From Trypanosoma brucei (Eukaryota), in assembly GCA_000002445.1 (NCBI GenBank), contig AE017150.2, positions 992,001-1,056,000 of the forward strand: a DNA stretch of 64,000 nt. The letters run 5' to 3'. This document shows, piece by piece, positions 1 to 53,013 of the stretch; within the stretch, counting starts at the first letter, position 1; each line of letters opens with the position of its first letter. Both the position numbers and the translations under genes were made by a program. The notes beneath the pieces are model-generated. The model saw nothing but the letters and a program-made list of their open reading frames with translations, made no database searches and had not been told where the DNA came from.

Positions 1-2193
1 AACAAACATGGCAACGTTCATGCCGCGGAGAAACTTTCCTTGAAGTTCCGCGAGTGTGACAGAGCACATATCATTGTCATCGGTGCATTCCAGGTATTCG
101 TCCACGCTAAAGAAGTGTGGCAAGCCCTGTGGAGGACAGACTTCTAGCGTACTCTCTCCGCGGAGGTTTACTGCCGTCTGCACATCATTCTGTCCCGTTC
201 CCGTTTTGTGGTTGAGTACAATCAAACGCACTCGGTTTGAAGGAACACTCTGTCGTTCCCTTGAAACCCTGATAATTGGTGACGACCCCCCCTCAACGAG
301 ACACATCCCATCTTCAGCCACTTTAACCGTATGAGACCCAGACACTCCACCAGTACTAAGCTCGCTGCACGGATGCCATCTCTTTCGGGAAACAACTGCA
401 GCCGGCGGGCGCACAAAGCTTTGAGATGCGGTAATGGACTCTGCACCCGCCACTAAACTGATCGATGACCCATTCATTCTCCCGGGGCCCTGAACTGCCT
501 TTTCCCTGGAACGCTTCTGAATGGAAAGTTGCTCGCTTCCACCCATACATACCCCCTGTCCTACACCTTGATTCTTATCTAGACTACAACTGGCTGACCT
601 GCATGTCGAACCTGGACGACTGTCGCCGCAACGAGCGATGCATGGGTTAATCGAACGAAGCTCCGTTCCGCATCGCAGATGCACACCCACAGAGCAGGAG
701 ATATGAGACTGCAGATATTGCTCACACTCCCTTTCCATGCCCACAGACACCCCCTCGGCAGACAAAATAGCCCCCTCACCCTCTTCCGCAGTACAAATCG
801 ACTGACGGGACGGCAAAGGTGAGCTTATAATCAAATTCGAGTCGCCTTTGAGGCCACTAAAGTACGGATACTCCATCCCCCCAATTAAACTATCCACCAA
901 AGAGTTACATGATGGAGTTCCAACCCTGCCACGTGCGCGGTCAGTAAGAATGGCAGATATGGGAAGAGCTTTCGACGGCAAACTGAGTCCGGTACCTTCT
1001 TTGACGTCCCCTAACGGCCCTTCGGCGCCCACAAAGTCAGAGGCTGCAGAAGGACATGAAAACGTTTTTGGTAGTACGTCGCCGACCATGGTGAGCTCAA
1101 CGTTACCGGAAGCTTTTCCTTCCTCGGTACGCAGAGGCTGCGCGTTCACGACTCCGGTGGGAGCACCTATGATGTCCTCGCTGCACCTCTGATATACCGC
1201 TCCACTCGTCCCATTTGTCAGGGCACCAGTTCCTCGATCATCATGTCGAGGAAACAGCATCAGTTCATTGTTGGATCCACTGTCCCCACGGCGCATAACT
1301 CCCATGCATATCTCACTAGCTTTTTGCGTGTGCCCCTCACTGCAACTTCCACTCGAGAGAACACCGGGAATCCCGTTGTCTGTGCAAAGTAGCCCCAATA
1401 CCATATCCACATCATAAAGGGAACTCTCACTCACACCTAAGGTATCACAGCCCCTTGTAGTGCCCTGCGGAAGATTGCATTTTCCGTCAAAGGCCCGGAA
1501 AGACCACCTCAGCCACCTCTCCGATGTTCCGTTAGGAGATGTTTTGCCCTGCAGACTGTTGGCCTCTCGCAGCACACCTACGTCGTTTCGGAGGGGACTC
1601 TCACTTGCTACCGTCAAACTCGACTGCAGCCCACCAAACTGGGCGAGCCTATTCGATTGGCCATCTAGAACCCGTGGTGGAGAGGTCGTCACGGTCGATT
1701 GCAGGGGCCAGGGACCCAGCCGCATTCCGTGAATGAAGGCATCAAGCCCATAATCGTGGCTATTCAGGTCGGCATGTTCACTCTGGAAAGCGTACGAGCA
1801 GACATAGTCGAGATCATAATACGGATAGTTTTCCCCCTCCAATGTCGCCGCTAGGTCGCTGGGCCTCGTATCAACTGTCAGGGCAACGTTGTCAATGGTT
1901 GAGCGCCCCTGAGCAACGGACACGGGCCCGTCTCCATCTTTGGCATCAAGATATATGGAAGACCTCCTCCTCCCTAAGTCTCCGTCATCAAGGCCATCCG
2001 ATCCAGTAGCCCACTCTGCAGTATTACAAACAATACTTCCACGGTCATTGTTTCCCGTTACATGAACACCAGTAGGGGAATTCCAGCCGTCGCTGAAGGT
2101 GTCTACTACCTCTTGGTGTTGCATTACCGCCTCGGACGCAAGAATATGGGACTCCACATTAGAAAAGCTTATCGAACCCTCAACATCGGACAT
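1..2193 (-). CDS. Inverted partial duplicate of the 5' ~730 codons of the 8506-14688 gene; start codon (CAT on + strand) at 2191-2193, reading frame runs off window at position 1. Status unclear: gene fragment, pseudogene or assembly artefact
   Basis: Mirror of 8506-10698 within the palindrome. It is absent from the ORF track only because no stop lies inside the window. It differs from the right-arm copy by two codons. Confidence 0.5.
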   Translation of the reverse strand, partial: MSDVEGSISFSNVESHILASEAVMQHQEVVDTFSDGWNSPTGVHVTGNNDRGSIVCNTAEWATGSDGLDDGDLGRRRSSIYLDAKDGDGPVSVAQGRSTIDNVALTVDTRPSDLAATLEGENYPYYDLDYVCSYAFQSEHADLNSHDYGLDAFIHGMRLGPWPLQSTVTTSPPRVLDGQSNRLAQFGGLQSSLTVASESPLRNDVGVLREANSLQGKTSPNGTSERWLRWSFRAFDGKCNLPQGTTRGCDTLGVSESSLYDVDMVLGLLCTDNGIPGVLSSGSCSEGHTQKASEICMGVMRRGDSGSNNELMLFPRHDDRGTGALTNGTSGAVYQRCSEDIIGAPTGVVNAQPLRTEEGKASGNVELTMVGDVLPKTFSCPSAASDFVGAEGPLGDVKEGTGLSLPSKALPISAILTDRARGRVGTPSCNSLVDSLIGGMEYPYFSGLKGDSNLIISSPLPSRQSICTAEEGEGAILSAEGVSVGMERECEQYLQSHISCSVGVHLRCGTELRSINPCIARCGDSRPGSTCRSASCSLDKNQGVGQGVCMGGSEQLSIQKRSREKAVQGPGRMNGSSISLVAGAESITASQSFVRPPAAVVSRKRWHPCSELSTGGVSGSHTVKVAEDGMCLVEGGSSPIIRVSRERQSVPSNRVRLIVLNHKTGTGQNDVQTAVNLRGESTLEVCPPQGLPHFFSVDEYLECTDDNDMCSVTLAELQGKFLRGMNVAMFV

Positions 2194-2693
2194 GTACGCT
2201 TGAAGATGGGGGAGGGGGGAAAGTGAACCTTGATACCTCACCCGTCACAGTTGGCTTCCTACACCAGCTCCTTCCTATATGTAGCGTGGAATACCCTTCA
2301 GCAGAGAGTGCAAGGATGCAGTGAAGTGGCGTAAAGAAGTAAGCAACACAGAAATATGAAGACAGAAACGGACGTGGCTCCATAATATTGCTACCTGAAG
2401 TTGCCGAGCATTGCTGACTATTAAAAAAAAAAAAAAACAGCGCCAGCACACTCGTATTGCCTTTATGCAGGACAATGGAGCCACGTGCGAATAGTGGGTT
2501 GTGAATGCAATGAAAAAGACATATATGTTTATAAACCAACAAAGATACATGCGCTTCTTGGTGGACGCAGACAGTCTTGTCAGCCCTGCCCACTCCCAAA
2601 CTACACTTCTATATAGTGCGAAGAAGGCATAACGCATCCAACAATAATCTGGACGTGCACAGTGAGGAGAGGAAGTTCTTACAAGGAAAAATA

Positions 2694-2694
<1 letters not shown>

Positions 2695-2729
<35 letters not shown>
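2695..2729. repeat. (TA)n microsatellite; longer than its right-arm partner
   Basis: Direct reading of tatatata... run. Confidence 0.9.
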
Positions 2730-2734
<5 letters not shown>

Positions 2735-4955
2735 CTACGCAAACAGTAGAATCATAACCCCCCCCCCGGTATTTTCCCCGCCGGGTGCCATCCACAACAA
2801 ACTAAAACCCGTTCTCACGGTAGAACGCCCGGATTCCGTTCCAGTAGTGATAATTCGAGTACTTGGTACAACATTTCTCTATCATGCCCTGATGACAAAT
2901 CAGTACAGCTCACCTAAGGAGAATAACAATAAATTCGTAGCTACTTTCTGAAGTGTAGTTTGGTAGACCGGGCCATGTTCCGCTCACAACATTCAGTGCC
3001 CAAATTTTCCATACATATGCAATTGGTCAGATGGTATATTGTCATCCAACTTTCTTGCGCCGTCGCGGGCAGCTGGATACCCCAGCAGACGGCAGTGTCT
3101 TTGTTGGAAACAATGTTATGTATGGGAAGGTGCGTACACACACAGGGTGGGGACCTTCATGGTTTTTTCCATGGCCCACTTCAATGCTACAAGTTAACCG
3201 ACCTGCTGTAGATGCAGTGGAAACCAACATACGTAAAAACTAATATGCCATGATAAATCCTTAGAGGAACACAACTGCTCAACGGTGTCATACGACCCCC
3301 ACACCTCCAGTAAACGTTTGAAATACTGATAAGTGCGTCCATGTATGGATCCACATCCCGAGACGCCGGCTGGCCGCCTTCAACAAGACACGGATTTCCA
3401 TTCAAGTACTAACACAGTAGCCAATACCGAGAGAAAATCCTCCACATAGTGTGCAACTAGAAACATCGGTTTCTCGCACCATGTTCGCATCGCAGCCGCC
3501 CCCCTCCAATCTCACCAAGAGGAAGTAGTGCATCACTGAGTCTGCCTTGTTGTACTTTCCACGCAGTCAAATAGTTATTACTCGCAGTTTCCTAGCGTTC
3601 AAACATAATCCAAGCTCCCCAATAGAAGGGTTGACGCTCGCACCCTGACAATCAGGTCAGTATGGCTAAGACAAATATGATGGTAACATAGAGCATATCG
3701 AATATAAATCATAGTATGATACTCACATTTCTACGCTGGGCAAACAGACGTTATTGAGACCCTTTTTTCTCACCAGAGGACGGGGATGAAAAGAAGAAAG
3801 CAAAGCACTCACTATTAACGCGGAAGGATATTGTGAAGGCGCACATATAGGTCTAAGATTGAGTTGTTTCGGATGCCTTCAAAGGGATTTGTGTCCAAAC
3901 AACTTCACATACACGGGATACGTATCCCATTCACGCACCTCCCAACCCCAACTTAGCGCACCCCAATGGGTTTACCACTCGGTGCATGCAACCTTTCGCC
4001 ATCTAAAAAATAAGTACTCGTTGTAGGTCATGGATCCTTGCTAAGCGCACCTCCTGAGGATATGCAACAACCTATCCATGGGTATACCACGGAACCGACG
4101 ACGTTAAAGATACGTAAACAAGGGAGAAAGATTATCTGAAGATTTCCTAACATGGTTTGAGTCGGTGACCAACAGCGTACATTCCCTTCCGTACCCCATC
4201 CCTAATAAAAACGTACACCCTTATCCCAGCCGTCCGCGATCACATCACTATTGCTATTTCTGTTTTTTAGAACTCTAAAACACATCAAGGGCCGTACTGA
4301 CAAACCTTCCGCACCCACCACCAAAACAGTGGCGAGGCCGCCGACCGCAGCAGTGGTAACCGGAAGAGGAAGGAAACAAACAATGGTGCGGTAGTAACCT
4401 GCTCTTCGAAATTCAGCAGTAGATGACAGATACTTGCTAGCTCTCTGCAAGTCCCACGCAGGATAGGCGTACGGCACAGTGCAACGTGTTACGGCTGCGC
4501 AGCAAGGTCAAGCACACGAAGTACCGGTTCGCTTCATCGTTGCATGACGCACGATCAGAAGATTCAATGGAATAATCGACACATAATATATTGGATCACC
4601 TAATTTTCTCTATACTGCCAATCCACCGTGGAAAACTGACGCACTTACAAAGGGTTAGAGGAAGTTCCACCGAAAAAAATATAGCATACTATGACCCGTG
4701 CTAAAAATCAGGGGCGGCTGCCACACCGTTATCGAACGCCCAGGCCGAACACGCACGCACGCACGCACGCACGTGACCGGCGCGGCAGAAACTTTGAGGC
4801 GCAGTAAATAAACCGACAGCGTCAGGCACCGACGGAAAGAGCACGTAAAACACCGCAAGTAGAATTTTACGTACCGGAAGGCTGTAAGTCACGCGAGAAC
4901 CGGGAAAGCAGCAGTACGCTCGGCCCGTATTAATCAAGTGTGCAGGCGACCTCTT

Positions 4956-4971
4956 GGGTTAGGGTTAGGGT
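4956..4971. repeat. Telomere-like hexamer block GGGTTAGGGTTAGGGT (2.5 x TTAGGG), interstitial
   Basis: Read directly. The mirror copy ACCCTAACCCTAACCC lies at 5737-5752. Each arm also has an adjacent (CGCA)n run (4741-4766 and partner). Confidence 0.85.
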
Positions 4972-5286
4972 CGGCCGCTTCAACCACCCACCGAAAATAC
5001 AACAAAAAAGGCAGAACTAGAAACAACAGCAGACCTCCACACGTGCGATGACACCCACAATAAAGGGCGACGTGGGCGGGGAAGGCGGTGGGGCTGAAGC
5101 GCGGAAGCGGCCGCACGAGGAGCCGTTCCTCGCCCTCCGCGTTTGGACGGACGGAAAGGGCACGGTTCCGCCGACGTCGCCCACACACAGCTATCCAGAC
5201 CCCTCTCACCCTCCAACAAGCGGGCGCAGGGCATCTAGACAACCAACCTCGTAGAACGAGGTGGGGAACCACATCCCCAACCCGGC

Positions 5287-5421
5287 CCAGCTGTCTAATT
5301 ATGCTATTAAAACCCAAAGTGCGGGAAGCGAGTCTCCGTACGCGAGTCCGATGGGTGCTTCTCGCAAGTTGAAAATGTTATGGTAACACGGCACCTCTGC
5401 CTTTACGTTTGGTTCCTTGGT
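5287..5421. other. Unique 135-bp spacer/loop at centre of palindrome (centre ~5354)
   Basis: The sequence between the arm ends has no reverse-complement partner. It is more AT-rich than the flanking GC-rich arm ends. Confidence 0.8.
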
Positions 5422-7972
5422 GCCGGGTTGGGGATGTGGTTCCCCACCTCGTTCTACGAGGTTGGTTGTCTAGATGCCCTGCGCCCGCTTGTTGGAGGGT
5501 GAGAGGGGTCTGGATAGCTGTGTGTGGGCGACGTCGGCGGAACCGTGCCCTTTCCGTCCGTCCAAACGCGGAGGGCGAGGAACGGCTCCTCGTGCGGCCG
5601 CTTCCGCGCTTCAGCCCCACCGCCTTCCCCGCCCACGTCGCCCTTTATTGTGGGTGTCATCGCACGTGTGGAGGTCTGCTGTTGTTTCTAGTTCTGCCTT
5701 TTTTGTTGTATTTTCGGTGGGTGGTTGAAGCGGCCGACCCTAACCCTAACCCAAGAGGTCGCCTGCACACTTGATTAATACGGGCCGAGCGTACTGCTGC
5801 TTTCCCGGTTCTCGCGTGACTTACAGCCTTCCGGTACGTAAAATTCTACTTGCGGTGTTTTACGTGCTCTTTCCGTCGGTGCCTGACGCTGTCGGTTTAT
5901 TTACTGCGCCTCAAAGTTTCTGCCGCGCCGGTCACGTGCGTGCGTGCGTGCGTGCGTGTTCGGCCTGGGCGTTCGATAACGGTGTGGCAGCCGCCCCTGA
6001 TTTTTAGCACGGGTCATAGTATGCTATATTTTTTTCGGTGGAACTTCCTCTAACCCTTTGTAAGTGCGTCAGTTTTCCACGGTGGATTGGCAGTATAGAG
6101 AAAATTAGGTGATCCAATATATTATGTGTCGATTATTCCATTGAATCTTCTGATCGTGCGTCATGCAACGATGAAGCGAACCGGTACTTCGTGTGCTTGA
6201 CCTTGCTGCGCAGCCGTAACACGTTGCACTGTGCCGTACGCCTATCCTGCGTGGGACTTGCAGAGAGCTAGCAAGTATCTGTCATCTACTGCTGAATTTC
6301 GAAGAGCAGGTTACTACCGCACCATTGTTTGTTTCCTTCCTCTTCCGGTTACCACTGCTGCGGTCGGCGGCCTCGCCACTGTTTTGGTGGTGGGTGCGGA
6401 AGGTTTGTCAGTACGGCCCTTGATGTGTTTTAGAGTTCTAAAAAACAGAAATAGCAATAGTGATGTGATCGCGGACGGCTGGGATAAGGGTGTACGTTTT
6501 TATTAGGGATGGGGTACGGAAGGGAATGTACGCTGTTGGTCACCGACTCAAACCATGTTAGGAAATCTTCAGATAATCTTTCTCCCTTGTTTACGTATCT
6601 TTAACGTCGTCGGTTCCGTGGTATACCCATGGATAGGTTGTTGCATATCCTCAGGAGGTGCGCTTAGCAAGGATCCATGACCTACAACGAGTACTTATTT
6701 TTTAGATGGCGAAAGGTTGCATGCACCGAGTGGTAAACCCATTGGGGTGCGCTAAGTTGGGGTTGGGAGGTGCGTGAATGGGATACGTATCCCGTGTATG
6801 TGAAGTTGTTTGGACACAAATCCCTTTGAAGGCATCCGAAACAACTCAATCTTAGACCTATATGTGCGCCTTCACAATATCCTTCCGCGTTAATAGTGAG
6901 TGCTTTGCTTTCTTCTTTTCATCCCCGTCCTCTGGTGAGAAAAAAGGGTCTCAATAACGTCTGTTTGCCCAGCGTAGAAATGTGAGTATCATACTATGAT
7001 TTATATTCGATATGCTCTATGTTACCATCATATTTGTCTTAGCCATACTGACCTGATTGTCAGGGTGCGAGCGTCAACCCTTCTATTGGGGAGCTTGGAT
7101 TATGTTTGAACGCTAGGAAACTGCGAGTAATAACTATTTGACTGCGTGGAAAGTACAACAAGGCAGACTCAGTGATGCACTACTTCCTCTTGGTGAGATT
7201 GGAGGGGGGCGGCTGCGATGCGAACATGGTGCGAGAAACCGATGTTTCTAGTTGCACACTATGTGGAGGATTTTCTCTCGGTATTGGCTACTGTGTTAGT
7301 ACTTGAATGGAAATCCGTGTCTTGTTGAAGGCGGCCAGCCGGCGTCTCGGGATGTGGATCCATACATGGACGCACTTATCAGTATTTCAAACGTTTACTG
7401 GAGGTGTGGGGGTCGTATGACACCGTTGAGCAGTTGTGTTCCTCTAAGGATTTATCATGGCATATTAGTTTTTACGTATGTTGGTTTCCACTGCATCTAC
7501 AGCAGGTCGGTTAACTTGTAGCATTGAAGTGGGCCATGGAAAAAACCATGAAGGTCCCCACCCTGTGTGTGTACGCACCTTCCCATACATAACATTGTTT
7601 CCAACAAAGACACTGCCGTCTGCTGGGGTATCCAGCTGCCCGCGACGGCGCAAGAAAGTTGGATGACAATATACCATCTGACCAATTGCATATGTATGGA
7701 AAATTTGGGCACTGAATGTTGTGAGCGGAACATGGCCCGGTCTACCAAACTACACTTCAGAAAGTAGCTACGAATTTATTGTTATTCTCCTTAGGTGAGC
7801 TGTACTGATTTGTCATCAGGGCATGATAGAGAAATGTTGTACCAAGTACTCGAATTATCACTACTGGAACGGAATCCGGGCGTTCTACCGTGAGAACGGG
7901 TTTTAGTTTGTTGTGGATGGCACCCGGCGGGGAAAATACCGGGGGGGGGTTATGATTCTACTGTTTGCGTAG

Positions 7973-7977
<5 letters not shown>

Positions 7978-8004
<27 letters not shown>
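7978..8004. repeat. (TA)n microsatellite, right-arm partner of 2695-2729
   Basis: Direct reading. The length difference accounts for the 9-bp shift in mirror coordinate sums. Confidence 0.9.
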
Positions 8005-8473
8005 CTATTTTTCCTTGTAAGAACTTCCTCTCCTCACTGTGCACGTCCAGATTATTGTTGGATGCGTTATGCCTTCTTCGCACTATATAGAAGTGTAGTT
8101 TGGGAGTGGGCAGGGCTGACAAGACTGTCTGCGTCCACCAAGAAGCGCATGTATCTTTGTTGGTTTATAAACATATATGTCTTTTTCATTGCATTCACAA
8201 CCCACTATTCGCACGTGGCTCCATTGTCCTGCATAAAGGCAATACGAGTGTGCTGGCGCTGTTTTTTTTTTTTTTTAATAGTCAGCAATGCTCGGCAACT
8301 TCAGGTAGCAATATTATGGAGCCACGTCCGTTTCTGTCTTCATATTTCTGTGTTGCTTACTTCTTTACGCCACTTCACTGCATCCTTGCACTCTCTGCTG
8401 AAGGGTATTCCACGCTACATATAGGAAGGAGCTGGTGTAGGAAGCCAACTGTGACGGGTGAGGTATCAAGGTT

Positions 8474-8500
8474 CACTTTCCCCCCTCCCCCATCTTCAAG
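8474..8500 (+). promoter_or_regulatory. Polypyrimidine tract plus AG (8499-8500): putative trans-splice acceptor for the 8506 gene
   Basis: ttcactttcccccctcccccatcttcaag lies immediately upstream of the first ATG. This is the typical kinetoplastid SL-addition context. Confidence 0.5.
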
Positions 8501-8505
8501 CGTAC

Positions 8506-11500
8506 ATGTCCGATGTTGAGGGTTCGATAAGCTTTTCTAATGTGGAGTCCCATATTCTTGCGTCCGAGGCGGTAATGCAACACCAAGAGGTAGTAGACAC
8601 CTTCAGCGACGGCTGGAATTCCCCTACTGGTGTTCATGTAACGGGAAACAATGACCGTGGAAGTATTGTTTGTAATACTGCAGAGTGGGCTACTGGATCG
8701 GATGGCCTTGATGACGGAGACTTAGGGAGGAGGAGGTCTTCCATATATCTTGATGCCAAAGATGGAGACGGGCCCGTGTCCGTTGCTCAGGGGCGCTCAA
8801 CCATTGACAACGTTGCCCTGACAGTTGATACGAGGCCCAGCGACCTAGCGGCGACATTGGAGGGGGAAAACTATCCGTATTATGATCTCGACTATGTCTG
8901 CTCGTACGCTTTCCAGAGTGAACATGCCGACCTGAATAGCCACGATTATGGGCTTGATGCCTTCATTCACGGAATGCGGCTGGGTCCCTGGCCCCTGCAA
9001 TCGACCGTGACGACCTCTCCACCACGGGTTCTAGATGGCCAATCGAATAGGCTCGCCCAGTTTGGTGGGCTGCAGTCGAGTTTGACGGTAGCAAGTGAGA
9101 GTCCCCTCCGAAACGACGTAGGTGTGCTGCGAGAGGCCAACAGTCTGCAGGACAAAACATCTCCTAACGGAACATCGGAGAGGTGGCTGAGGTGGTCTTT
9201 CCGGGCCTTTGACGGAAAATGCAATCTTCCGCAGGGCACTACAAGGGGCTGTGATACCTTAGGTGTGAGTGAGAGTTCCCTTTATGATGTGGATATGGTA
9301 TTGGGGCTACTTTGCACAGACAACGGGATTCCCGGTGTTCTCTCGAGTGGAAGTTGCAGTGAGGGGCACACGCAAAAAGCTAGTGAGATATGCATGGGAG
9401 TTATGCGCCGTGGGGACAGTGGATCCAACAATGAACTGATGCTGTTTCCTCGACATGATGATCGAGGAACTGGTGCCCTGACAAATGGGACGAGTGGAGC
9501 GGTATATCCGAGGTGCAGCGAGGACATCATAGGTGCTCCCACCGGAGTCGTGAACGCGCAGCCTCTGCGTACCGAGGAAGGAAAAGCTTCCGGTAACGTT
9601 GAGCTCACCATGGTCGGCGACGTACTACCAAAAACGTTTTCATGTCCTTCTGCAGCCTCTGACTTTGTGGGCGCCGAAGGGCCGTTAGGGGACGTCAAAG
9701 AAGGTACCGGACTCAGTTTGCCGTCGAAAGCTCTTCCCATATCTGCCATTCTTACTGACCGCGCACGTGGCAGGGTTGGAACTCCATCATGTAACTCTTT
9801 GGTGGATAGTTTAATTGGGGGGATGGAGTATCCGTACTTTAGTGGCCTCAAAGGCGACTCGAATTTGATTATAAGCTCACCTTTGCCGTCCCGTCAGTCG
9901 ATTTGTACTGCGGAAGAGGGTGAGGGGGCTATTTTGTCTGCCGAGGGGGTGTCTGTGGGCATGGAAAGGGAGTGTGAGCAATATCTGCAGTCTCATATCT
10001 CCTGCTCTGTGGGTGTGCATCTGCGATGCGGAACGGAGCTTCGTTCGATTAACCCATGCATCGCTCGTTGCGGCGACAGTCGTCCAGGTTCGACATGCAG
10101 GCCAGCCAGTTGTAGTCTAGATAAGAATCAAGGTGTAGGACAGGGGGTATGTATGGGTGGAAGCGAGCAACTTTCCATTCAGAAGCGTTCCAGGGAAAAG
10201 GCAGTTCAGGGCCCCGGGAGAATGAATGGGTCATCGATCAGTTTAGTGGCGGGTGCAGAGTCCATTACCGCATCTCAAAGCTTTGTGCGCCCGCCGGCTG
10301 CAGTTGTTTCCCGAAAGAGATGGCATCCGTGCAGCGAGCTTAGTACTGGTGGAGTGTCTGGGTCTCATACGGTTAAAGTGGCTGAAGATGGGATGTGTCT
10401 CGTTGAGGGGGGGTCGTCACCAATTATCAGGGTTTCAAGGGAACGACAGAGTGTTCCTTCAAACCGAGTGCGTTTGATTGTACTCAACCACAAAACGGGA
10501 ACGGGACAGAATGATGTGCAGACGGCAGTAAACCTCCGCGGAGAGAGTACGCTAGAAGTCTGTCCTCCACAGGGCTTGCCACACTTCTTTAGCGTGGACG
10601 AATACCTGGAATGCACCGATGACAATGATATGTGCTCTGTCACACTCGCGGAACTTCAAGGAAAGTTTCTCCGCGGCATGAACGTTGCCATGTTTGTTGC
10701 TGGAAGTGAGTCAGTACCACTGTCTGGCTGGTGTGCGGTTTTTGAGGTGATGAATCATGTGTTTCGTGACATCAATGATGAGTGCGAGTTGTTTATGTCC
10801 GTTGTCCTAATACGACAGGAGTCAGCACGGGATTTGCTTTCTGAGTCCGAAGGGGGGGTGCGAACTCTAAGTTCCTCCGTCATGGCTCCTTGGGTTGCCT
10901 TTGAAAACGTCACCCATATGAAACTGAAGAGCGCACATCACTTCATCACACTTTTATCGCGTGGTCTCGAAGTTGCCGATTTGAAGCACAATTGTGTCGG
11001 AAGTCGTGTAGTTTTGTCCGTCATGTTGAAACAAATTGATGTGAATGATGTAATTTTGTCGTCGATGCTTGTGACGGGTGGTGCTACCCCTAACGACCTT
11101 GATGTGCTACTGAGGGAAGGTGACCAAAGTGCACGAAAGCTATTCCATGAAGCGTTGGGTGGTCCTTATTTCACTGTTGTGGTTTCCTCACTCTGTGAAA
11201 GGGACAGAGACCTTCTGCAGCTTCTGAGCGCCCAACATAAGTTCACTTCCGTTGTCAACCAACCGTGTACCGTAGGAAGCGTGAGTCGGTTGATCGATAA
11301 TGCGGAGGCGGAGGTTGCTGGGTGTTCCACTGACGATCAAATTGTATTGGAAAGAAAACAATTCTTGCTTGAGCGCATAGCGCTTGCGAAACATATTATG
11401 TATAACCCCAAAGGGCTTTCACTGGTAGTTGACGTGGAGGAATCAGTACGACTTGAGAAGAGGGTTCATTGTGGTGTGAAATTTGACAAGCAACCGTTCC

Positions 11501-14500
11501 CTGGACCACAGTCCTCATCTGTGTCTGCTTGTGGCGGGGATTCCCACAACGCGGCGTCTGCGCTGTGTGTGGAGGAAGGGCAAAGTAGTAAGCAGAGACA
11601 AGAACCATGTCCAAAATTTTTCTCGGAGGCACAGTGGCTGAAACCAAGTAGCAAAGGCGACACTAGAGTTACGCTCATGGGTGGCGCGCCACCGTCATCG
11701 CTGCCACAACGCAATCATTATGGGGAGGGGAAAACACCCTCGTGCTTGCCCTGTGTTACCGCAGCAGGCATGCCCACTCCCCGAGATCCCCGACTGGAGC
11801 GCCAGGTGAGGCCATCCAGCAGAAGACTCAGCATTCCAGTGGAGCCGGATCAAGCTAGTTACGCAACGACTTGCAGTATGTCGGACCCCCAAAGGGGGGA
11901 GGGTTTGCCCTCCCTGGGCCCTTTGGCAACCACATGTGGAATGGAATTGGCGCCATCTACGCAGCGTAGAGCCCACCGTTGTTTTCCTTCCTCAGCTTCC
12001 TCCGACCACACGACATGTGCATACTCACAGCGGCTGTTCTCGCTAACCCCCGCTCGGGGGGCCTCGCATGATGCTGAGGTCTCCTGTAAGATTGACACAC
12101 CCGGTGTTCCTGATGCAGAAAAAGTTAGAACTTCTACCACGCCCGATGCTTTTTCATGCCCAGGTATAAGCACAAAGGTGAAATACGACCCTGGCCTTTC
12201 TCTCCCATCCTTGAAGGCAGCACGGGGACCACCGTGTTCCATGACATCTTGCTTCCCATTCGACCCAATCCTTACGGGACCCCCCGGTGTTGTGGAGCCC
12301 GTGGAGCACTGCGGAATCTCGCAGGGCCCAGCACTCTGCAGACAGAGGGAACAGCCACAACTGCCCGATGCCTCGGTTGCATGCTCTGGGGGCTCCCCAA
12401 CCCTCACTTGCAAGCAAGTGGCTCATGCGAGCCAAAACAGCGTGCACACCGACATCAAGAAGAAGCAAATTTCTGACGGCGGTAGTGACAGCAGCGCACG
12501 GAGCGCAGAAGGCAGCGAGGATGATGTGCTGCACAGTGCCATGTCTGCACCTTCTAAGGTGAGAACGCTTGTTGTGGTCGACCAGGGTTGTGGACACGTG
12601 ATTGGTGCCGGGAACGATGACGGTGGGCCTTTCCTAAGAACTGGCGGCTCTCATGAGGGATACGAGGTTGACGAGGTGGTGAAATGGGGCGATGGTTGCG
12701 GTGACGTGCCTTCGAAGGTGTTGGGTGAGCTGTTTGATGTTTTTGTTTTGGGTTGCAACGCTGCTATCCTTACTGCAGAGAGTGGTTCCTCAACCGTGTC
12801 ATCAACTGTGCTTAGGGGTCTCGTACGGAATGTGCTTTCAGAGGTTGTTGATGCTTCGGGCCTCCAGAATTCCAACCGTAGAGGATTGCTCAGCTTATCG
12901 ATTGTGAAATTGAGCGGAGAGCGCATGCTTGATCTGCTGGATGATAGCAGCGAGCCGGAGAGGTTGGTCATAGCTATGTCGCCGATCTTCGGCCCGTGTG
13001 TTCACAACGCCCGCCGGTTTCCTGTTAGCAGCTGCAGCGGGTTCGACTCGCTACTGGCATCAGCCCTTCGTCGCGCCAAGAACGCAGGGGTCGATGATGG
13101 GTTGGTGTTCGTCTCAGTTGTACTAAAGCAGAAGCTGAAAGCGGATGGGGATGTCCTTGTCTCATCTCTCGCAGTCAGTTTGGCAGGGGAAAACGTTGAC
13201 CTCTACACATCCGTGCTGAACCGTGTCTCGCGCGCACCGCGTGCGCTATTTCACTACGCATTGGGTGGACCGTGTTATACTGTAGCGTTGCTTAGTATTG
13301 ATGTCGCAACGACTCAGACCGAAAATATGCTGCGCGTGCAGAAGTGTATTGGAGAGGTGGTGAACCGGCCGATACACCGCGGAAGCATCGTGAAGTTTAT
13401 TAGCGGAATCCGGGATGATCTCGTGCCTAGTCTTCGTGAAAAGTTTCAAGGGTCGAATAAATGTGAGCCGTCAGATAATATATTGTACCGGCTCGAGGAA
13501 ATGGTGCGAGACGCAGAATTGCTTTTGGAGAATTTCGAGTCGAATGACCCCCGCGCATATCTTAGTGACAAAGAGACAAGGTCGCCTAAGGGGTGCGTGT
13601 CGCTCCTAGAGACCAAAGCCAGAACCGGGGACGAGGGGAGGGTTCATTCACTTTTATTCTTCGAGCAACGACTCCTTAGTGATGGTACCGCTGGTGTGCA
13701 AGGTAACTCCGTATTTACCCGAGCAGGGGCGATTACCCGCCGCTATGGCGTCGACGAGGTGGTGTTGCGTGGGCCCGACAGCGACAGTAATGCTACTCTG
13801 TGTTCACGTCTTCTTGATGAGCTCGTTCGGAAGTTTATGTCGGGGCATTGCACTGCTGTTCTTGCCGCAGATAGCCACAACTCCGCTTCCACACCGCTTA
13901 TCCTCCGCAAGATAGTGTACCTTATCCTGCAGAGTACGAAAGCAGGGGTGGGTTGCGGGCCGGTGGGTGGCGACTTGCTCCTCTCAATGGCGCTCGTTAA
14001 GAACGGTGTTACGGTGGATCTATTGGCAGCTGAAGAATCCGAGGCGGTTCACCGCTTCGGGGTGGAAATATCACCACTCTTCGACCGCCACGTACGGGGA
14101 GTGTCGCATCGCGTTGTCGCCGACACTGAGGCTTTTGACCGTTTTTTAGTTGGGGCTGTCGAGCACGTCGTACCCACCCTACAAGCCGAGGATCCCGGCC
14201 TGATGGTTGTTTCCTTAAAGTTAACACACCATGTGGAAGAACCTGTACACGACGTGTTTGTTTCCTCGCTCATGGTGACCACCGTATTCGATCACGTTTC
14301 CCACTACAGCGACATTTTGTCAAACCGCTCTAGTGAGCTCACGGACCTTTTCAAGCTCGCGTTGGGGGGGCCATGTTTCACTATCGTCGCGCTTGGATTG
14401 TGTGACGAAGATGATGATGCGGAAGCCTTGCTTTCCGTGCAAACTAAGCTTTCCCAGGTGCGAAACCTGCCGTCTCATCGCACGAGTGCTCTACGGCGCA

Positions 14501-14688
14501 TGGATGAACTTACGAAAACAATTCAGGTGCTGGGGGTCCAGCTTCAGGAAGAAGAAAGTGAGGAAGAAAAGGCCCAACTCCGCGTGAGGATCGTCCGTGC
14601 AAGGCGTTTCCTGCTAGAAGTTGAGTCACTCCTCAAGAACCCACCACGGGAAATGGGCTGCGTACGCGCTTACAAGTCGGTGCACTGA
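8506..14688 (+). CDS. Large (2060 aa) protein with a ~700-aa S/G-rich low-complexity N-terminus followed by three degenerate kinesin-motor-like modules (pseudokinesin-like); paralogue of the next two genes
   Basis: ORF track 8458..14688 starts at GTG; the first ATG is at 8506. Each module follows the kinesin motor skeleton with catalytic motifs degenerate: GSRVV in place of SSRSH, and LFHEALGGPYFTVVVSSLCERD resembling LLQDSLGGNSKTLMIATISP. Other module versions are ALGGPCYTVALLSI and ALGGPCFTIVALGLC. Modules end with coiled-coil plus [LM]L.[ND]P...Y motifs (LLENFESNDPRAY; LLKNPPREMGCVRAY). Confidence 0.6.
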   Translation: MSDVEGSISFSNVESHILASEAVMQHQEVVDTFSDGWNSPTGVHVTGNNDRGSIVCNTAEWATGSDGLDDGDLGRRRSSIYLDAKDGDGPVSVAQGRSTIDNVALTVDTRPSDLAATLEGENYPYYDLDYVCSYAFQSEHADLNSHDYGLDAFIHGMRLGPWPLQSTVTTSPPRVLDGQSNRLAQFGGLQSSLTVASESPLRNDVGVLREANSLQDKTSPNGTSERWLRWSFRAFDGKCNLPQGTTRGCDTLGVSESSLYDVDMVLGLLCTDNGIPGVLSSGSCSEGHTQKASEICMGVMRRGDSGSNNELMLFPRHDDRGTGALTNGTSGAVYPRCSEDIIGAPTGVVNAQPLRTEEGKASGNVELTMVGDVLPKTFSCPSAASDFVGAEGPLGDVKEGTGLSLPSKALPISAILTDRARGRVGTPSCNSLVDSLIGGMEYPYFSGLKGDSNLIISSPLPSRQSICTAEEGEGAILSAEGVSVGMERECEQYLQSHISCSVGVHLRCGTELRSINPCIARCGDSRPGSTCRPASCSLDKNQGVGQGVCMGGSEQLSIQKRSREKAVQGPGRMNGSSISLVAGAESITASQSFVRPPAAVVSRKRWHPCSELSTGGVSGSHTVKVAEDGMCLVEGGSSPIIRVSRERQSVPSNRVRLIVLNHKTGTGQNDVQTAVNLRGESTLEVCPPQGLPHFFSVDEYLECTDDNDMCSVTLAELQGKFLRGMNVAMFVAGSESVPLSGWCAVFEVMNHVFRDINDECELFMSVVLIRQESARDLLSESEGGVRTLSSSVMAPWVAFENVTHMKLKSAHHFITLLSRGLEVADLKHNCVGSRVVLSVMLKQIDVNDVILSSMLVTGGATPNDLDVLLREGDQSARKLFHEALGGPYFTVVVSSLCERDRDLLQLLSAQHKFTSVVNQPCTVGSVSRLIDNAEAEVAGCSTDDQIVLERKQFLLERIALAKHIMYNPKGLSLVVDVEESVRLEKRVHCGVKFDKQPFPGPQSSSVSACGGDSHNAASALCVEEGQSSKQRQEPCPKFFSEAQWLKPSSKGDTRVTLMGGAPPSSLPQRNHYGEGKTPSCLPCVTAAGMPTPRDPRLERQVRPSSRRLSIPVEPDQASYATTCSMSDPQRGEGLPSLGPLATTCGMELAPSTQRRAHRCFPSSASSDHTTCAYSQRLFSLTPARGASHDAEVSCKIDTPGVPDAEKVRTSTTPDAFSCPGISTKVKYDPGLSLPSLKAARGPPCSMTSCFPFDPILTGPPGVVEPVEHCGISQGPALCRQREQPQLPDASVACSGGSPTLTCKQVAHASQNSVHTDIKKKQISDGGSDSSARSAEGSEDDVLHSAMSAPSKVRTLVVVDQGCGHVIGAGNDDGGPFLRTGGSHEGYEVDEVVKWGDGCGDVPSKVLGELFDVFVLGCNAAILTAESGSSTVSSTVLRGLVRNVLSEVVDASGLQNSNRRGLLSLSIVKLSGERMLDLLDDSSEPERLVIAMSPIFGPCVHNARRFPVSSCSGFDSLLASALRRAKNAGVDDGLVFVSVVLKQKLKADGDVLVSSLAVSLAGENVDLYTSVLNRVSRAPRALFHYALGGPCYTVALLSIDVATTQTENMLRVQKCIGEVVNRPIHRGSIVKFISGIRDDLVPSLREKFQGSNKCEPSDNILYRLEEMVRDAELLLENFESNDPRAYLSDKETRSPKGCVSLLETKARTGDEGRVHSLLFFEQRLLSDGTAGVQGNSVFTRAGAITRRYGVDEVVLRGPDSDSNATLCSRLLDELVRKFMSGHCTAVLAADSHNSASTPLILRKIVYLILQSTKAGVGCGPVGGDLLLSMALVKNGVTVDLLAAEESEAVHRFGVEISPLFDRHVRGVSHRVVADTEAFDRFLVGAVEHVVPTLQAEDPGLMVVSLKLTHHVEEPVHDVFVSSLMVTTVFDHVSHYSDILSNRSSELTDLFKLALGGPCFTIVALGLCDEDDDAEALLSVQTKLSQVRNLPSHRTSALRRMDELTKTIQVLGVQLQEEESEEEKAQLRVRIVRARRFLLEVESLLKNPPREMGCVRAYKSVH

Positions 14689-16410
14689 GGCTGGTGTGCC
14701 TCCATTCTGACGTTTATTACTCCAAGCCTCATCTACTTGTCACTTTGTGTGCTAGCATGAAGGTACTTGTGCACTACTGCCGAACGCTCGCACCCCTATG
14801 GGTCCGGTTGAGCTGTGGAAGTGGGTACACACTTCTAGTATGTTGGGTTTCCCCACCTTAACACTACCTCTGGTTGCGTTGCCCATTCGGTGGCTCGGAT
14901 ACGCCAAAATTTGTGTGTGCGTCGTTATATAAATGTCATACACACGCGCGTATATATATATATATATATGTACCCCATAAGTGTTCCCTTCTCCCTGCTG
15001 GTGCACGCTGCTGCTACCAAGATACCGCTTGTTTACTTCGATAAATTTGCTTCTCCCACGTGCCGTTGAAGGGCGGTAAGGGTGAAAAGCGATACCTTTG
15101 TCTCGCTGCCGCGGGGGAGCTAGGGCGGGACTTCGCTTTACCTCTTTCTGAGGGTTTCTGTAAGCCGATCTCTCTTCCGCAGAGAGTGGTAAGTATAATG
15201 TGTGTGTGTGTGTTTAGTGTATTCCCTTCCTGCGCATCGTCTTAAGTGCTTAGTACATTTTTTAGTTTTTTTTCGTGTTGCCGTAAATTTATCTCTTTCT
15301 TTCATCGCCTTTGTTATCTGCAATGCGTCCGCATTTGGGAAAAGGTAGGAAGGAGTGTTCCCTTCGTGAACGTAGTGAGTGGTTGGAAATAAAGTGAGCC
15401 GTGTGTGCTGACCGTCACGCGCGTTTTTTTTTTGTGTGTGTGTGTGTGTTTATTTCAATTTTGCTGTGTTTTTGCGGTTATTCGATGGGAACCCACCCTT
15501 CCCCCCTCCCCTAGAGTTTTTTACACGTGTTGGGCGGAAGGTCATAGTAGCGACCCGAGGAAGTACCGACACAGCCTCTTTTTATTTTTTATATACCATT
15601 TACTTACGTGTTCTCCCCCTTTGTACCACTGCTACTGTTTTGGGGTCGCGCTCCGTTGACGCGGAGTCACTTACATCGATGAATAGCATGTGTGCCCATT
15701 GTATTTTTTTCCAGGTATCCTCTGCTTACTACTAATAATAATGAATGCACCGCGGAAACTAAATAGCGATCGCTTCATACGACTTGTTGTTGCGGTGACT
15801 AGGGCGCCCTTCCCAAGGGCAGCACGGAAGGTTTTGTCGGGATAACATCATGTCTTCATTCTTTCATTCCTTTTACTCTTGCACACCGATAACGTAGCAA
15901 GTCGCGAATAGGATCGGCAGCTTCACTGAGAAGGTCTTTGCAATGCACTGAGCAAAACCCCTGTGAGGGCACGCCGCTGAAACTGGTAATTATATTTCAG
16001 AGTGAGAAGATTCAACTGCCGAATCCACGGCTGCACAAGTCTCCGTATTGCATCTCGGTAAAATCTGAGCTGGCGCGGAGAATTCTGTGTGGGCTTGGGG
16101 AGCAGTTACATAGCATCTTTGGACGGGAATAATACCCCTTGTACCCAAGAAGGGATCCTGTCGGATGTGCTCCGACTTACTTTGTAGTCACGCACACACA
16201 CATGCTCGGCAATCTTCCTCATCTGTGTTGTCAGCACGGTTCCCAGACCTCTACGATACTTGTTTTTACCGTCGACGGCGTGGCGCCATGCCTCGGAGGT
16301 TACACGTTTCATGCGAGTCACATACGTTCTTGGGTTTGTCCCACTTTCCAACTTGGTGTAAGACGTTCCGTGGTCAGCCCGGCCTAGTTAGTTGTTCAAA
16401 CGCCTCTGTT

Positions 16411-16446
16411 TCCCTCCCCCTCTCCTATTTCTACGTTTCTCAAAAG
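16411..16446 (+). promoter_or_regulatory. Polypyrimidine tract plus AG: putative trans-splice acceptor for the 16515 gene
   Basis: cgcctctgtttccctccccctctcctatttctacgtttctcaaaag lies upstream of the first ATG at 16515. Confidence 0.45.
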
Positions 16447-16514
16447 CTGTCTTTGGTTTCAGAAAGAGGAGCGAAAGCAAGGGAAGTCAAGCAAGTAAGT
16501 TTTGTAACCGTAAA

Positions 16515-24622: not shown

Positions 24623-24625
<3 letters not shown>

Positions 24626-24664
<39 letters not shown>

Positions 24665-24666
24665 TA
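24626..24666. repeat. (TTA)n microsatellite (~13 units)
   Basis: Direct reading. It produces poly-L/poly-Y/poly-N runs in the spurious ORFs 24345..24725+, 24604..24804+ and 24440..24709-. Confidence 0.9.
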
Positions 24667-39500: not shown

Positions 39501-39694
39501 ACAAATATCAATACCCCCCTCCAAAAGACATATCGGGCCGTAATTTATTTGTTTTACAGTTTCGTGAACCCGTGGTAGTCGTGATACTCCATTTTTAAGG
39601 ATTATCAATTGCAGTGAGGTTATTGGTTTCGAGTTGAATTTTAAATCGTACAACTTCATAATTTTGACCCTTTCCTCCCCGCTGTAACCGATTT

Positions 39695-39744
39695 TTCTCA
39701 CTCATTTTCAACATTCTCTCTTTAATTTTCTTTCCTCCCACCAG
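39695..39744 (+). promoter_or_regulatory. Long polypyrimidine tract plus AG upstream of TDP1: putative trans-splice acceptor region
   Basis: ttctcactcattttcaacattctctctttaattttctttcctcccaccag. Confidence 0.4.

Positions 39745-52978: not shown

Positions 52979-53013
<35 letters not shown>

What the first reader, a model, noticed from the sequence alone, without database searches (positions are those of the whole stretch)
1..10698. 10.7 kb near-perfect palindrome capturing the 5' third of a gene and its upstream region
Positions 1-5286 are the reverse complement of 5422-10698 around a 135-bp unique spacer. The arms differ only by two SNPs (both change a codon in the duplicated gene segment: T/A and P/S on the left-arm reading) and a (TA)n length change. 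The left arm runs to the window edge, so the true arm may be longer. A real structure of this kind would be a very recent inverted duplication (fold-back replication or a breakage-fusion-bridge product) and would be prone to hairpin or cruciform formation. It could equally be a long-read fold-back chimera or an assembly artefact at a contig end. The arm differences argue weakly for two genuine copies.
Basis: seen in the sequence. Interest (0 to 1): 0.8.

Follow-up and report, generated by a model that had tools for sequence, protein, structure and literature searches.

The report
Conserved 47-kb trypanosome chromosome palindrome
The 10.7-kb mirror repeat is the inner part of a real palindrome of about 47 kb on Trypanosoma brucei chromosome 2, cut short by the window edge; it duplicates four whole genes, occurs in several subspecies, is kept near-identical by copying between its arms, and is not an assembly error or a brand-new event.

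Summary
The inverted repeat is real: 1-5286 is the reverse complement of 5422-10698 around a 135-nt spacer. The arms differ by three SNPs (not two), a four-unit (TA)n change and a C10/G9 change.

The window matches T. b. brucei TREU927 chromosome 2, which I recall as a Sanger/BAC reference. The "5' third of a gene" is a window-edge effect. The left copy is a full 2060-aa gene (XP_951714). The next three genes are mirrored too.

The right arm runs to window 28955, so arms are about 23.5 kb and the palindrome about 47 kb. It forms a divergent strand-switch region.

Other assemblies support it:
- T. b. equiperdum IVM-t1 has both arms, the spacer and both flank junctions.
- A T. equiperdum OVI contig stops 32 nt past the spacer.
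- T. b. gambiense DAL972 has the left arm, the spacer and the right outer junction.

Strain-specific variants sit on both arms (22 and 79 sites), against 0-11 arm-to-arm differences. That indicates concerted evolution, not recency.

One T. congolense contig has the gene unduplicated, with U2 snRNA 6.5 kb upstream. This suggests the right arm is the derived copy.

The locus is probably Tb927_02_IR2 of Tschudi et al. 2012. It is ordinary and largely known.

The parts
1..5286 (-). Inner 5.3 kb of the left arm, truncated by the window edge. It holds the upstream region plus the first 731 codons of the left kinesin-like gene copy (XP_951714).
   Evidence: reverse complement of 5422-10698; the translation of rc(1-2193) equals the N-terminal 731 aa of XP_951714 exactly.
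5287..5421 (.). Unique 135-nt spacer at the palindrome centre and the centre of the divergent strand-switch region.
   Evidence: conserved in OVI, IVM-t1 and DAL972. It is written in the opposite orientation in the IVM-t1 assembly; no unusual self-structure (z = -0.53).
5422..28955 (+). Complete right arm (23,534 nt): 3.08-kb upstream region plus four genes.
   Evidence: homology of the IVM-t1 left-arm locus (L005) and the OVI contig (L002/L003) to the window ends sharply at 28955. Beyond it they continue into a different flank (880-aa gene, ABC transporter).
1..2193 (-). Left copy of the kinesin-like/KIAP4-family gene, 5' part only (the rest lies left of the window).
8506..14688 (+). Right copy of the kinesin-like gene (2060 aa, identical to XP_951715). 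It differs from the left copy at aa 216, 335 and 533 only.
16515..21083 (+). POMP22 copy (1522 aa). Two identical copies are annotated in TREU927 (XP_951713 and XP_951716; Tb927.2.5530/5610).
   Evidence: (PMC7952579).
23115..23759 (+). 214-aa conserved hypothetical gene. Two identical copies in TREU927 (AAQ16008, AAQ16021).
25505..27799 (+). 764-aa gene (XP_951718), the outermost gene of the arm. Its mirror copy XP_951711 differs by one residue (Q5K).
2695..2728 (.). (TA)17 microsatellite in the left arm; the mirror at 7978-8003 is (AT)13. This is a length difference between the arms.
7941..7949 (.). G9 homopolymer in the right arm; the mirror at 2758-2767 is C10.
5738..5752 (+). Telomere-type 15-mer CCCTAACCCTAACCC, 317 nt from the spacer; its mirror is at 4956-4970.
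   Evidence: 0 expected in shuffles; conserved in IVM-t1, DAL972 and OVI.
28955..28956 (.). Outer junction between the right arm and the right flank. I infer this to be the novel joint made by the duplication.
   Evidence: alignment of both flanks in TREU927, IVM-t1 and OVI. DAL972 is aligned continuously across it.
32689..32837 (+). U2 snRNA gene in the right flank. It is not part of the palindrome; it serves as the synteny marker that polarises the duplication.
   Evidence: its T. congolense orthologue lies 6.5 kb upstream of, and divergent from, the kinesin-like gene. It is absent from the 8.8 kb of left flank in IVM-t1 and OVI.

Best explanation
The finding is the inner part of a genuine chromosomal palindrome of about 47 kb on Trypanosoma brucei chromosome 2. 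It has two arms of about 23.5 kb around a 135-nt spacer.

Each arm carries about 3.1 kb of upstream region and four complete genes: a 2060-aa kinesin-like protein, POMP22, a 214-aa protein and a 764-aa protein. Transcription must run outward from the centre on both arms, so the centre is a divergent strand-switch region and both polycistronic units begin with the same four genes.

Shown here:
- The structure exists in several Trypanozoon assemblies with identical boundaries.
- The arms evolve in concert. Strain-specific substitutions are found on both arms, while arm-to-arm differences are 10-20 times rarer.

Inferred:
- Homogenisation is by arm-to-arm gene conversion or recombination, as in sex-chromosome palindromes.
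- The duplication arose after the split from T. congolense, by an inverted copy of the originally single, leftward-transcribed segment being laid down on the other side of the 135-nt piece. This would be fold-back or template-switch synthesis, with the loop becoming the spacer, followed by joining to the right flank at 28955/28956.
- The consequences are doubled dosage of four genes and a duplicated transcription-start region.
For: Identity of the window:
- Six proteins encoded downstream of the kinesin-like ORF are exact matches to TREU927 chromosome 2 proteins on a 1,193,948-bp record.
- The right kinesin-like ORF equals XP_951715. The left partial copy equals the first 731 aa of XP_951714.

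Mirror gene order in TREU927:
- The accession pairs are XP_951711/718, 713/716 and 714/715.
- They show 1, 0 and 3 amino-acid differences respectively.

Independent assemblies:
- IVM-t1 chromosome 2 carries the 764-aa gene twice in inverted orientation, 42.5 kb apart, with different outer flanks.
- An ungapped IVM-t1 stretch runs left arm, spacer, then 5.4 kb of right arm.
- The OVI contig ends 32 nt past the spacer, inside the other arm, as expected of a collapsed palindrome.
- DAL972 has the arm plus spacer, and separately the right outer junction.
- The outer boundary is sharp at 28955.

Concerted evolution:
- Inner 4 kb: 22 sites are fixed between both TREU927 arms and both IVM-t1 arms. 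One site differs between the TREU927 arms and none between the IVM-t1 arms.
- Outer 13.5 kb: 79 sites are shared by both IVM-t1 arms against TREU927 and OVI, versus 11 IVM-t1 arm-to-arm differences.

Polarity of the duplication:
- The T. congolense contig has no inverted repeat in 7 kb upstream of the orthologue.
- It has U2 snRNA divergent at 6.5 kb. In T. brucei, U2 is only in the right flank.

Strand-switch region: GC skew changes sign at the centre.

Literature: Tschudi et al. 2012 list a near-identical multi-kb inverted repeat on chromosome 2 at about 994-1,000 kb, named IR2.
Against: - The TREU927 left arm beyond the window could not be retrieved as DNA. Its extent rests on annotated protein pairs and on other strains.
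- Arms longer than the reads can be partly homogenised by assemblers and polishers, which would exaggerate arm identity.
- The IVM-t1 chromosome is scaffolded, with a 100-N gap 5.4 kb into the right arm.
- DAL972 lacks the right arm (a gap) and shows 172 nt of unrelated sequence after only 16 nt of inverted repeat beyond the spacer. This is unexplained.
- T. congolense has a second 98.8%-identical copy or allele of the gene on another contig that I could not inspect.
- No read-level, depth or wet-lab evidence was available.
Confidence: 0.85

Rival explanations
1. Assembly artefact. A fold-back chimeric read or a misjoin at a contig end created a false palindrome in this assembly.
For: The left arm runs to the window edge. 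Palindromes are hard to clone and assemble. The OVI and DAL972 assemblies fail at this locus.
Against: The window proteins match TREU927 chromosome 2 exactly; that this is a Sanger/BAC reference is my own knowledge. The left copy continues as full-length genes in mirror order. IVM-t1, which has its own SNPs on both arms, shows both arms, the spacer and both distinct flank junctions. The same outer arm end joined to two different unique flanks requires two inverted copies. The spacer is genomic sequence conserved in four assemblies, not an adapter.
Confidence: 0.03
2. A very recent inverted duplication (fold-back or breakage-fusion-bridge product) whose arms are near-identical simply because there has been no time to diverge. 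No homogenisation is involved.
For: There are only 3 SNPs and 2 repeat-length changes in 5.3 kb. The structure appears absent from the T. congolense contig, so it is not ancient on the genus scale.
Against: The same palindrome with identical junctions is shared by strains whose arms differ from each other at 0.55-0.65% of sites. Within each strain the arms differ at 0-0.08%. Without homogenisation, arm divergence should be at least as large as strain divergence. Both arms are embedded between unique chromosomal flanks, so this is not a terminal breakage-fusion-bridge product.
Confidence: 0.07
3. The structure is polymorphic. Some haplotypes or strains (for example one DAL972 homologue) still carry the unduplicated ancestral arrangement, with only a 16-nt inverted repeat flanking the 135-nt piece. 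The palindrome is then present, absent or heterozygous in the population.
For: In DAL972 the sequence beyond the spacer matches the arm for 16 nt (15/16) and then continues into 172 nt unrelated to the arm, before an assembly gap. This sequence is not E. coli or plasmid DNA.
Against: The 172 nt lie at a contig end next to a gap and may be a poor or chimeric Sanger read. They match nothing in the window or any fetched locus. DAL972 also has the derived right outer junction.
Confidence: 0.15

Closest known systems
Long inverted repeats of the T. brucei TREU927 genome catalogued by Tschudi et al. 2012 (BMC Genomics 13:427, PMC3447711), specifically Tb927_02_IR2
   Same: Both are on chromosome 2, are multi-kb and about 99% identical, and sit at about 994-1,000 kb. 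The midpoint of the printed range, minus the centre's offset in the window (5354), gives about 992,096. That is within 100 nt of 31 x 32,000, a plausible window start. The position also agrees with the distance from the right chromosome end in IVM-t1 (about 209 kb, against about 197 kb). The paper reports AGO1-bound small RNAs from IR2 (8,681 reads).
   Different: The paper gives a repeat length of 10,011 bp with 14 mismatches, and the end coordinate is misprinted ('100060'). Here the arms are about 23.5 kb. IR2 was not among the repeats verified by PCR. The paper does not describe the conservation across subspecies, the concerted evolution or the gene content. My identification with IR2 is inferred from coordinates, not proven.
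Gene-conversion-maintained ampliconic palindromes of mammalian sex chromosomes (human Y P1-P8, X palindromes); comparison from my own knowledge
   Same: Both have long inverted arms around a short unique spacer and carry intact genes in the arms. Arm-to-arm identity (at least 99.9%) is far higher than the divergence between lineages that share the structure. There is also a possible spacer inversion between lineages.
   Different: This one is in a protist with polycistronic transcription, and its centre doubles as a divergent transcription start region. It is much smaller than P1. There is no evidence of tissue-specific gene enrichment. The conversion mechanism was not tested.
Inverted-repeat-mediated linear amplicons of Leishmania, and fold-back or breakage-fusion-bridge inverted duplications (e.g. 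PMC4256157, PMC4028189)
   Same: Both are inverted duplications in a trypanosomatid with a short spacer at the fold-back point. Fold-back or template-switch synthesis is a plausible origin for both.
   Different: The Leishmania products are extrachromosomal, stress-selected, unstable amplicons ending in telomeres. This palindrome is a stable, inherited, intrachromosomal structure joined to unique flanks on both sides.
Fold-back chimeric reads and contig-end palindromes in long-read assemblies
   Same: A near-perfect inverted repeat that reaches the edge of the sequence inspected.
   Different: The edge is a window edge, not a contig end. The spacer is conserved genomic DNA. Independent assemblies reproduce the structure.

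Membership tests
Fold-back chimera / contig-end assembly artefact | The palindrome sits at a sequence end and one arm has no independent continuation | tested here: not met
   The left copy continues as the full 2060-aa XP_951714. Beyond it lie mirror copies of POMP22, the 214-aa gene and the 764-aa gene on a 1.19-Mb chromosome record.
Fold-back chimera / contig-end assembly artefact | Not reproduced in independent assemblies of the species | tested here: not met
   IVM-t1 has both arms, the spacer and both flank junctions. OVI runs 32 nt into the second arm. DAL972 has the arm, the spacer and the right junction.
Fold-back chimera / contig-end assembly artefact | The turn-around point is an adapter or has no genomic spacer | tested here: not met
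   The 135-nt spacer is conserved in four assemblies, with strain-specific substitutions.
Fold-back chimera / contig-end assembly artefact | Read depth is single-copy and no reads span both arms | not testable with these tools
   No read data were available.
Gene-conversion-maintained large palindrome (sex-chromosome type) | Two long inverted arms around a short unique spacer, both embedded in the chromosome | tested here: met
Gene-conversion-maintained large palindrome (sex-chromosome type) | Arm-to-arm identity far exceeds divergence between lineages sharing the structure, with lineage-specific variants on both arms | tested here: met
   Shared-on-both-arms fixed differences number 22 (inner 4 kb) and 79 (outer 13.5 kb). 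Arm-to-arm differences number 0-1 and 11. Caveat: assembler homogenisation is possible.
Gene-conversion-maintained large palindrome (sex-chromosome type) | Intact genes are carried in both arms | tested here: met
   Four ORF pairs, full length in both copies in TREU927.
Gene-conversion-maintained large palindrome (sex-chromosome type) | Spacer inversion polymorphism from arm-arm crossover | tested here: inconclusive
   The spacer is written in the opposite orientation in IVM-t1 relative to TREU927 and DAL972. No assembly can phase the spacer to the flanks across 23.5 kb of near-identical arm.
T. brucei siRNA-producing long inverted repeats (Tschudi 2012, IR1-IR7) | This is the same locus as a catalogued repeat (IR2) | tested here: inconclusive
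   The chromosome, approximate position and near-identity agree. The printed length (10,011 bp) and end coordinate do not fit exactly. The window's absolute coordinates are inferred.
T. brucei siRNA-producing long inverted repeats (Tschudi 2012, IR1-IR7) | Produces AGO1-bound small RNAs | not testable with these tools
   Known only from the paper's table for IR2.
Divergent strand-switch region / RNA polymerase II transcription start region of trypanosomatids | Gene orientation and strand compositional skew diverge from a central non-coding region | tested here: met
   GC skew is negative left of about 5.3 kb and positive to the right. All long ORFs to the right are on the + strand, and the left copy is on the - strand. 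The central non-coding region is 6.3 kb.
Divergent strand-switch region / RNA polymerase II transcription start region of trypanosomatids | H2A.Z/H2B.V/H4K10ac chromatin and mapped transcription starts | not testable with these tools
   No chromatin or RNA data. G+T content on the sense strand is only mildly raised, at 0.51-0.61.
Leishmania-type linear amplicon / breakage-fusion-bridge product | Terminal or extrachromosomal, with arms ending in telomeres or a broken end | tested here: not met
   Both arms join unique flanks: the 880-aa gene and ABC transporter on the left, adenylate kinase and U2 on the right. Only a 15-nt telomere-like motif lies near the centre.

The most novel reading that the evidence does not exclude
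The DAL972 contig may preserve the pre-duplication allele: left arm, the 135-nt piece, an imperfect 16-nt inverted repeat, then unrelated sequence. If so, it shows directly that the 47-kb palindrome was seeded by fold-back priming at a 16-bp inverted repeat whose loop became the spacer. It would also mean the palindrome still segregates as a presence/absence or heterozygous variant in T. b. gambiense. Together with the opposite spacer orientation in IVM-t1, this would make the locus a tractable natural system. It could be used to study palindrome birth, flip-flop inversion and arm-to-arm conversion at a trypanosome transcription start region.
Probability: 0.12. Interest if true: 0.5.

Novelty: already known. 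Interest (0 to 1): 0.25.

Why it matters
Mainly as a correction. The repeat is not a misassembly and not a fresh rearrangement. It is a stable feature of a reference chromosome, with annotated paralogue pairs (e.g. Tb927.2.5530/5610), and was very probably listed as an inverted repeat in 2012.

Practical consequences:
- Reads, RNAi or CRISPR reagents and expression measurements for the four genes cannot distinguish the copies.
- Short-read and even PacBio assemblies collapse or break here.
- The orientation of the spacer and the assignment of arm-specific SNPs in any assembly are unreliable.

Biologically it is a clean, small example of a gene-bearing palindrome evolving in concert in a protist, centred on a divergent transcription start region. 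One T. congolense contig suggests which arm is the copy.

Tried and rejected
1. Fetching the TREU927 left flank directly failed. Exact-protein look-ups of XP_951713/716 (P0020), XP_951711 (P0015) and the window kinesin-like ORF found no record. The left arm's extent in TREU927 therefore rests on protein pairs.

2. Looking for independent short-read contigs across the spacer through an ORF that starts in it (window 4934-5317, minus strand) found nothing. The Logan contigs found through the kinesin-like protein start only 93-117 nt upstream of the ATG.

3. Word-index homologue searches with the kinesin-like and 764-aa proteins returned only the T. brucei clusters. The exhaustive HMMER search was needed to reach outgroups.

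4. The T. grayi orthologue contig begins 92 nt upstream of the gene, so it is uninformative about the centre.

5. El-Sayed et al. 2003 (chromosome II paper) is not held. The T. b. gambiense genome paper does not mention this locus. Gene-ID and phrase searches for a description of the palindrome found nothing beyond Tschudi 2012.

6. Spacer self-structure is no better than shuffles.

7. The DAL972 172-nt odd sequence does not match the window, any fetched locus, E. coli genomes or plasmids. It stays unexplained.

8. siRNA from a hairpin transcript: I considered this and judged it unlikely as a primary role. Transcription diverges from the centre, so no single sense transcript should contain both arms. 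The paper nevertheless reports small RNAs from IR2.

Full report
**1. The observation.** An inverted-repeat scan and a global alignment confirm that window 1-5286 is the reverse complement of 5422-10698 around a 135-nt spacer at 5287-5421. The arms differ at three single bases, not two:
- 597/10102
- 1190/9509
- 1547/9152

They also differ by a four-unit (TA)n length change (34 nt at 2695-2728 against 26 nt at 7978-8003) and by a C10/G9 homopolymer (2758-2767 against 7941-7949). All three SNPs are non-synonymous in the duplicated ORF. Right versus left they read D216G, P335Q and P533S. There is no T/A change.

**2. Where the window comes from.** A U2 spliceosomal RNA at 32689-32837 shows the sequence is eukaryotic. 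Pfam hits include the FAZ1 conserved domain and TDP1. Exact-sequence look-ups place six proteins encoded downstream of the kinesin-like ORF in Trypanosoma brucei brucei TREU927, on a record of 1,193,948 bp, which is chromosome 2. From my own knowledge, not a tool result, this is a BAC-based Sanger reference (El-Sayed et al. 2003; the paper is not in the library). A long-read fold-back chimera is therefore not an available explanation for this assembly.

**3. The palindrome is much larger than the finding.** The accession lists show mirror-ordered pairs in TREU927:

| Gene | Left copy | Right copy | Differences |
|---|---|---|---|
| 764-aa | XP_951711 | XP_951718 | 1 residue |
| 214-aa | AAQ16008 | AAQ16021 | identical |
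| POMP22 | XP_951713 | XP_951716 | identical |
| kinesin-like, 2060 aa | XP_951714 | XP_951715 | 3 residues |

The right ORF (8506-14688) equals XP_951715. The left partial ORF (rc 1-2193) equals the first 731 residues of XP_951714. All three differences between the two full-length proteins fall inside the window. So "capturing the 5' third of a gene" is an effect of the window edge.

Alignment of loci from other strains shows that arm homology ends sharply at window 28955. After it, the left copy continues into an 880-aa gene and an ABC transporter. The right copy continues into adenylate kinase and U2. The arms are therefore about 23.5 kb and the whole structure about 47 kb.

**4. Independent assemblies.**
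- **T. b. equiperdum IVM-t1** (GCA_003543875.1, CM010673.1). The 764-aa gene occurs twice in inverted orientation, 42.5 kb apart, each copy with its own flank. An ungapped stretch runs left arm, spacer, then 5.4 kb of right arm, and is followed by a 100-N scaffold gap.
- **T. equiperdum OVI.** Contig CZPT02000137.1 carries one arm and the spacer, and stops 32 nt into the other arm. This is what a collapsed palindrome gives in a short-read graph.
- **T. b. gambiense DAL972.** It has one arm, the spacer and a gap. A second contig starts 1.5 kb inside the arm's outer end and runs continuously across the 28955/28956 junction into the right flank.

The same outer arm end joined to two different unique flanks cannot be satisfied by one copy. 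This is the strongest sequence-level argument that there are two inverted copies.

**5. Not recent: concerted evolution.**
- **Inner 4 kb**, six-way alignment of both TREU927 arms, both IVM-t1 arms, DAL972 and OVI. At 22 sites, both TREU927 arms share one base and both IVM-t1 arms share another. At 24 sites, DAL972 differs from both TREU927 arms. One site differs between the TREU927 arms and none between the IVM-t1 arms.
- **Outer 13.5 kb.** At 79 sites, both IVM-t1 arms differ together from the TREU927 right arm and OVI. Only 11 sites differ between the IVM-t1 arms.

Divergence between strains (about 0.55-0.65%) is thus 10-20 times the divergence between arms (0-0.08%), although the strains share the structure with identical boundaries. 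Two of the three TREU927 arm SNPs are derived on the right arm and one on the left, judged against the other strains.

The simplest reading is continuing arm-to-arm homogenisation by gene conversion. One caveat applies. The arms are longer than the reads, so assemblers and polishers can blur arm-specific variants. Random read assignment should hide only about half of the true differences, which would not close a 10-fold gap.

**6. Orientation and origin.** GC skew switches sign at the centre. All long ORFs to the right are on the + strand, and the left copy is on the - strand. The 6.3 kb between the two kinesin-like start codons is therefore a divergent strand-switch region, and both polycistronic units start with the same four genes.

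An exhaustive HMMER search found orthologues of the kinesin-like protein across trypanosomatids.
- In T. grayi the gene order kinesin-like, then a POMP22-like gene, is kept, but the contig starts at the gene.
- In T. congolense IL3000 (CAEQ01001942.1) there are 7 kb upstream of the orthologue with no inverted repeat. The U2 snRNA gene lies 6.5 kb upstream in divergent orientation.

In T. brucei, U2 is found only in the right flank. It is absent from 8.8 kb of left flank. Removing the right arm would put U2 about 7 kb from the left kinesin-like start.

I infer that the ancestral single copy was the leftward-transcribed one (the present left arm). I also infer that the right arm is the derived inverted copy, laid down between the 135-nt piece and the right flank. 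This is the product expected of fold-back or template-switch synthesis, with the loop becoming the spacer and a second joint forming at 28955/28956.

This step is inference.

**7. Unexplained details.**
- In DAL972 the sequence beyond the spacer matches the arm for 16 nt (15/16) and then becomes 172 nt unrelated to anything fetched, just before the gap. It is not E. coli or plasmid DNA. It may be a bad Sanger read at a palindrome centre. More interestingly, it may be a surviving unduplicated allele with the short inverted repeat that seeded the fold-back.
- The spacer is written in the opposite orientation in IVM-t1 compared with TREU927 and DAL972. This could be a real flip by arm-arm crossover or simply unphaseable assembly.
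- Each arm carries a telomere-type 15-mer (CCCTAACCCTAACCC) 317 nt from the spacer. It is conserved in all four assemblies and not expected by chance. I did not pursue its meaning.
- The spacer itself has no special fold.

**8. What is known.** Tschudi et al. 2012 surveyed TREU927 for large inverted repeats and listed seven. On chromosome 2 they give Tb927_02_IR2 at "994300/100060" with these properties:
- repeat length 10,011 bp
- 99% identity with 14 mismatches
- 8,681 AGO1-bound small-RNA reads

The midpoint of 994,300-1,000,600, minus the centre's offset in the window, gives about 992,096, within 100 nt of 31 x 32,000. The distance from the right chromosome end agrees with IVM-t1. I therefore think IR2 is this palindrome, with its length under-reported. 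The authors PCR-verified IR3 and IR4, not IR2.

The POMP22 pair is annotated as Tb927.2.5530/5610. I found no paper describing the full 23.5-kb arms, the conservation across subspecies or the concerted evolution. The library does not hold most subscription papers.

**9. Verdict.** The structure is a genuine palindrome of about 47 kb, conserved in Trypanozoon and evolving in concert, at a divergent strand-switch region of a well-studied reference chromosome. It is not an artefact and not a very recent event.

It belongs to a well-known kind (large gene-bearing palindromes homogenised by gene conversion), and the locus itself has very probably been catalogued. Interest is low to moderate. The only route to something more is the DAL972 oddity as a possible relic of the founding fold-back event.

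Noticed in passing
window 32689-32837 (+); L012 384-527 (-): U2 snRNA gene (83 bits, short trypanosomatid form). Its T. congolense orthologue (87% identical) lies 6.5 kb upstream of the kinesin-like orthologue. ARAGORN finds no tRNA genes in the window.
   Followed up: partly
window 5738-5752 (+) and 4956-4970 (-): Telomere-type 15-mer CCCTAACCCTAACCC once per arm, 317 nt from the spacer, with the C-rich strand reading away from the centre. None is expected in shuffles, and it is conserved in IVM-t1, DAL972 and OVI. It could be a relic of how the palindrome formed or a protein-binding site.
   Followed up: partly
L007 6610-6781 (DAL972 FN554965.1, next to the 100-N gap): 172 nt of sequence that follows the spacer plus a 16-nt inverted repeat but is unrelated to the arm, the window, the other loci, E. 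coli or plasmids. It shows only a weak 33-nt resemblance to arm positions about 5466-5500, in the non-palindromic orientation.
   Followed up: partly
window 8506-14688, 16515-21083, 25505-27799; L005 15880-18522: The kinesin-like protein, POMP22, the 764-aa protein and the left-flank 880-aa protein are paralogues sharing a degenerate kinesin-motor-like domain. A 2026 paper calls POMP22B a KIAP4 paralogue. The locus is therefore an old tandem family array, part of which was later duplicated in inverted form.
   Followed up: partly
window 17043-17491: Imperfect 18/30/48/60-nt tandem repeats inside POMP22. The protein length varies between strains (1522, 1512, 1488 and 1195 aa), so this is a repeat-length polymorphism or an assembly problem.
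   Followed up: no
window 42074-51301: FLAM8 (3075 aa, Tb927.2.5760) with 17 FAZ1-type repeat domains and internal tandem DNA repeats (43.4-45.5 kb at 93-97% identity; 46.8-48.5 kb). It is fragmented in the OVI assembly and shorter in DAL972 (2964 aa).
   Followed up: no
window 38001-40000 and 52001-54000: Two AT-rich intergenic stretches (GC 0.37 and 0.36, against about 0.50 elsewhere) within the rightward transcription unit.
   Followed up: no
L001, L008, L009 (Logan contigs of runs ERR7929162, ERR7929163, ERR7929159): Three independent short-read contigs carrying the kinesin-like gene all begin 93-117 nt upstream of its ATG. This suggests a recurrent graph break there, equivalent to about window 8390-8410.
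   Followed up: no
L006 9555-9654 and flanking sequence (IVM-t1 CM010673.1): A scaffold gap in the right arm with about 2.2 kb of redundant sequence on either side (window equivalents 8628-10851 appear twice). The kinesin-like gene is split into four frameshifted gene models in this PacBio assembly.
   Followed up: no
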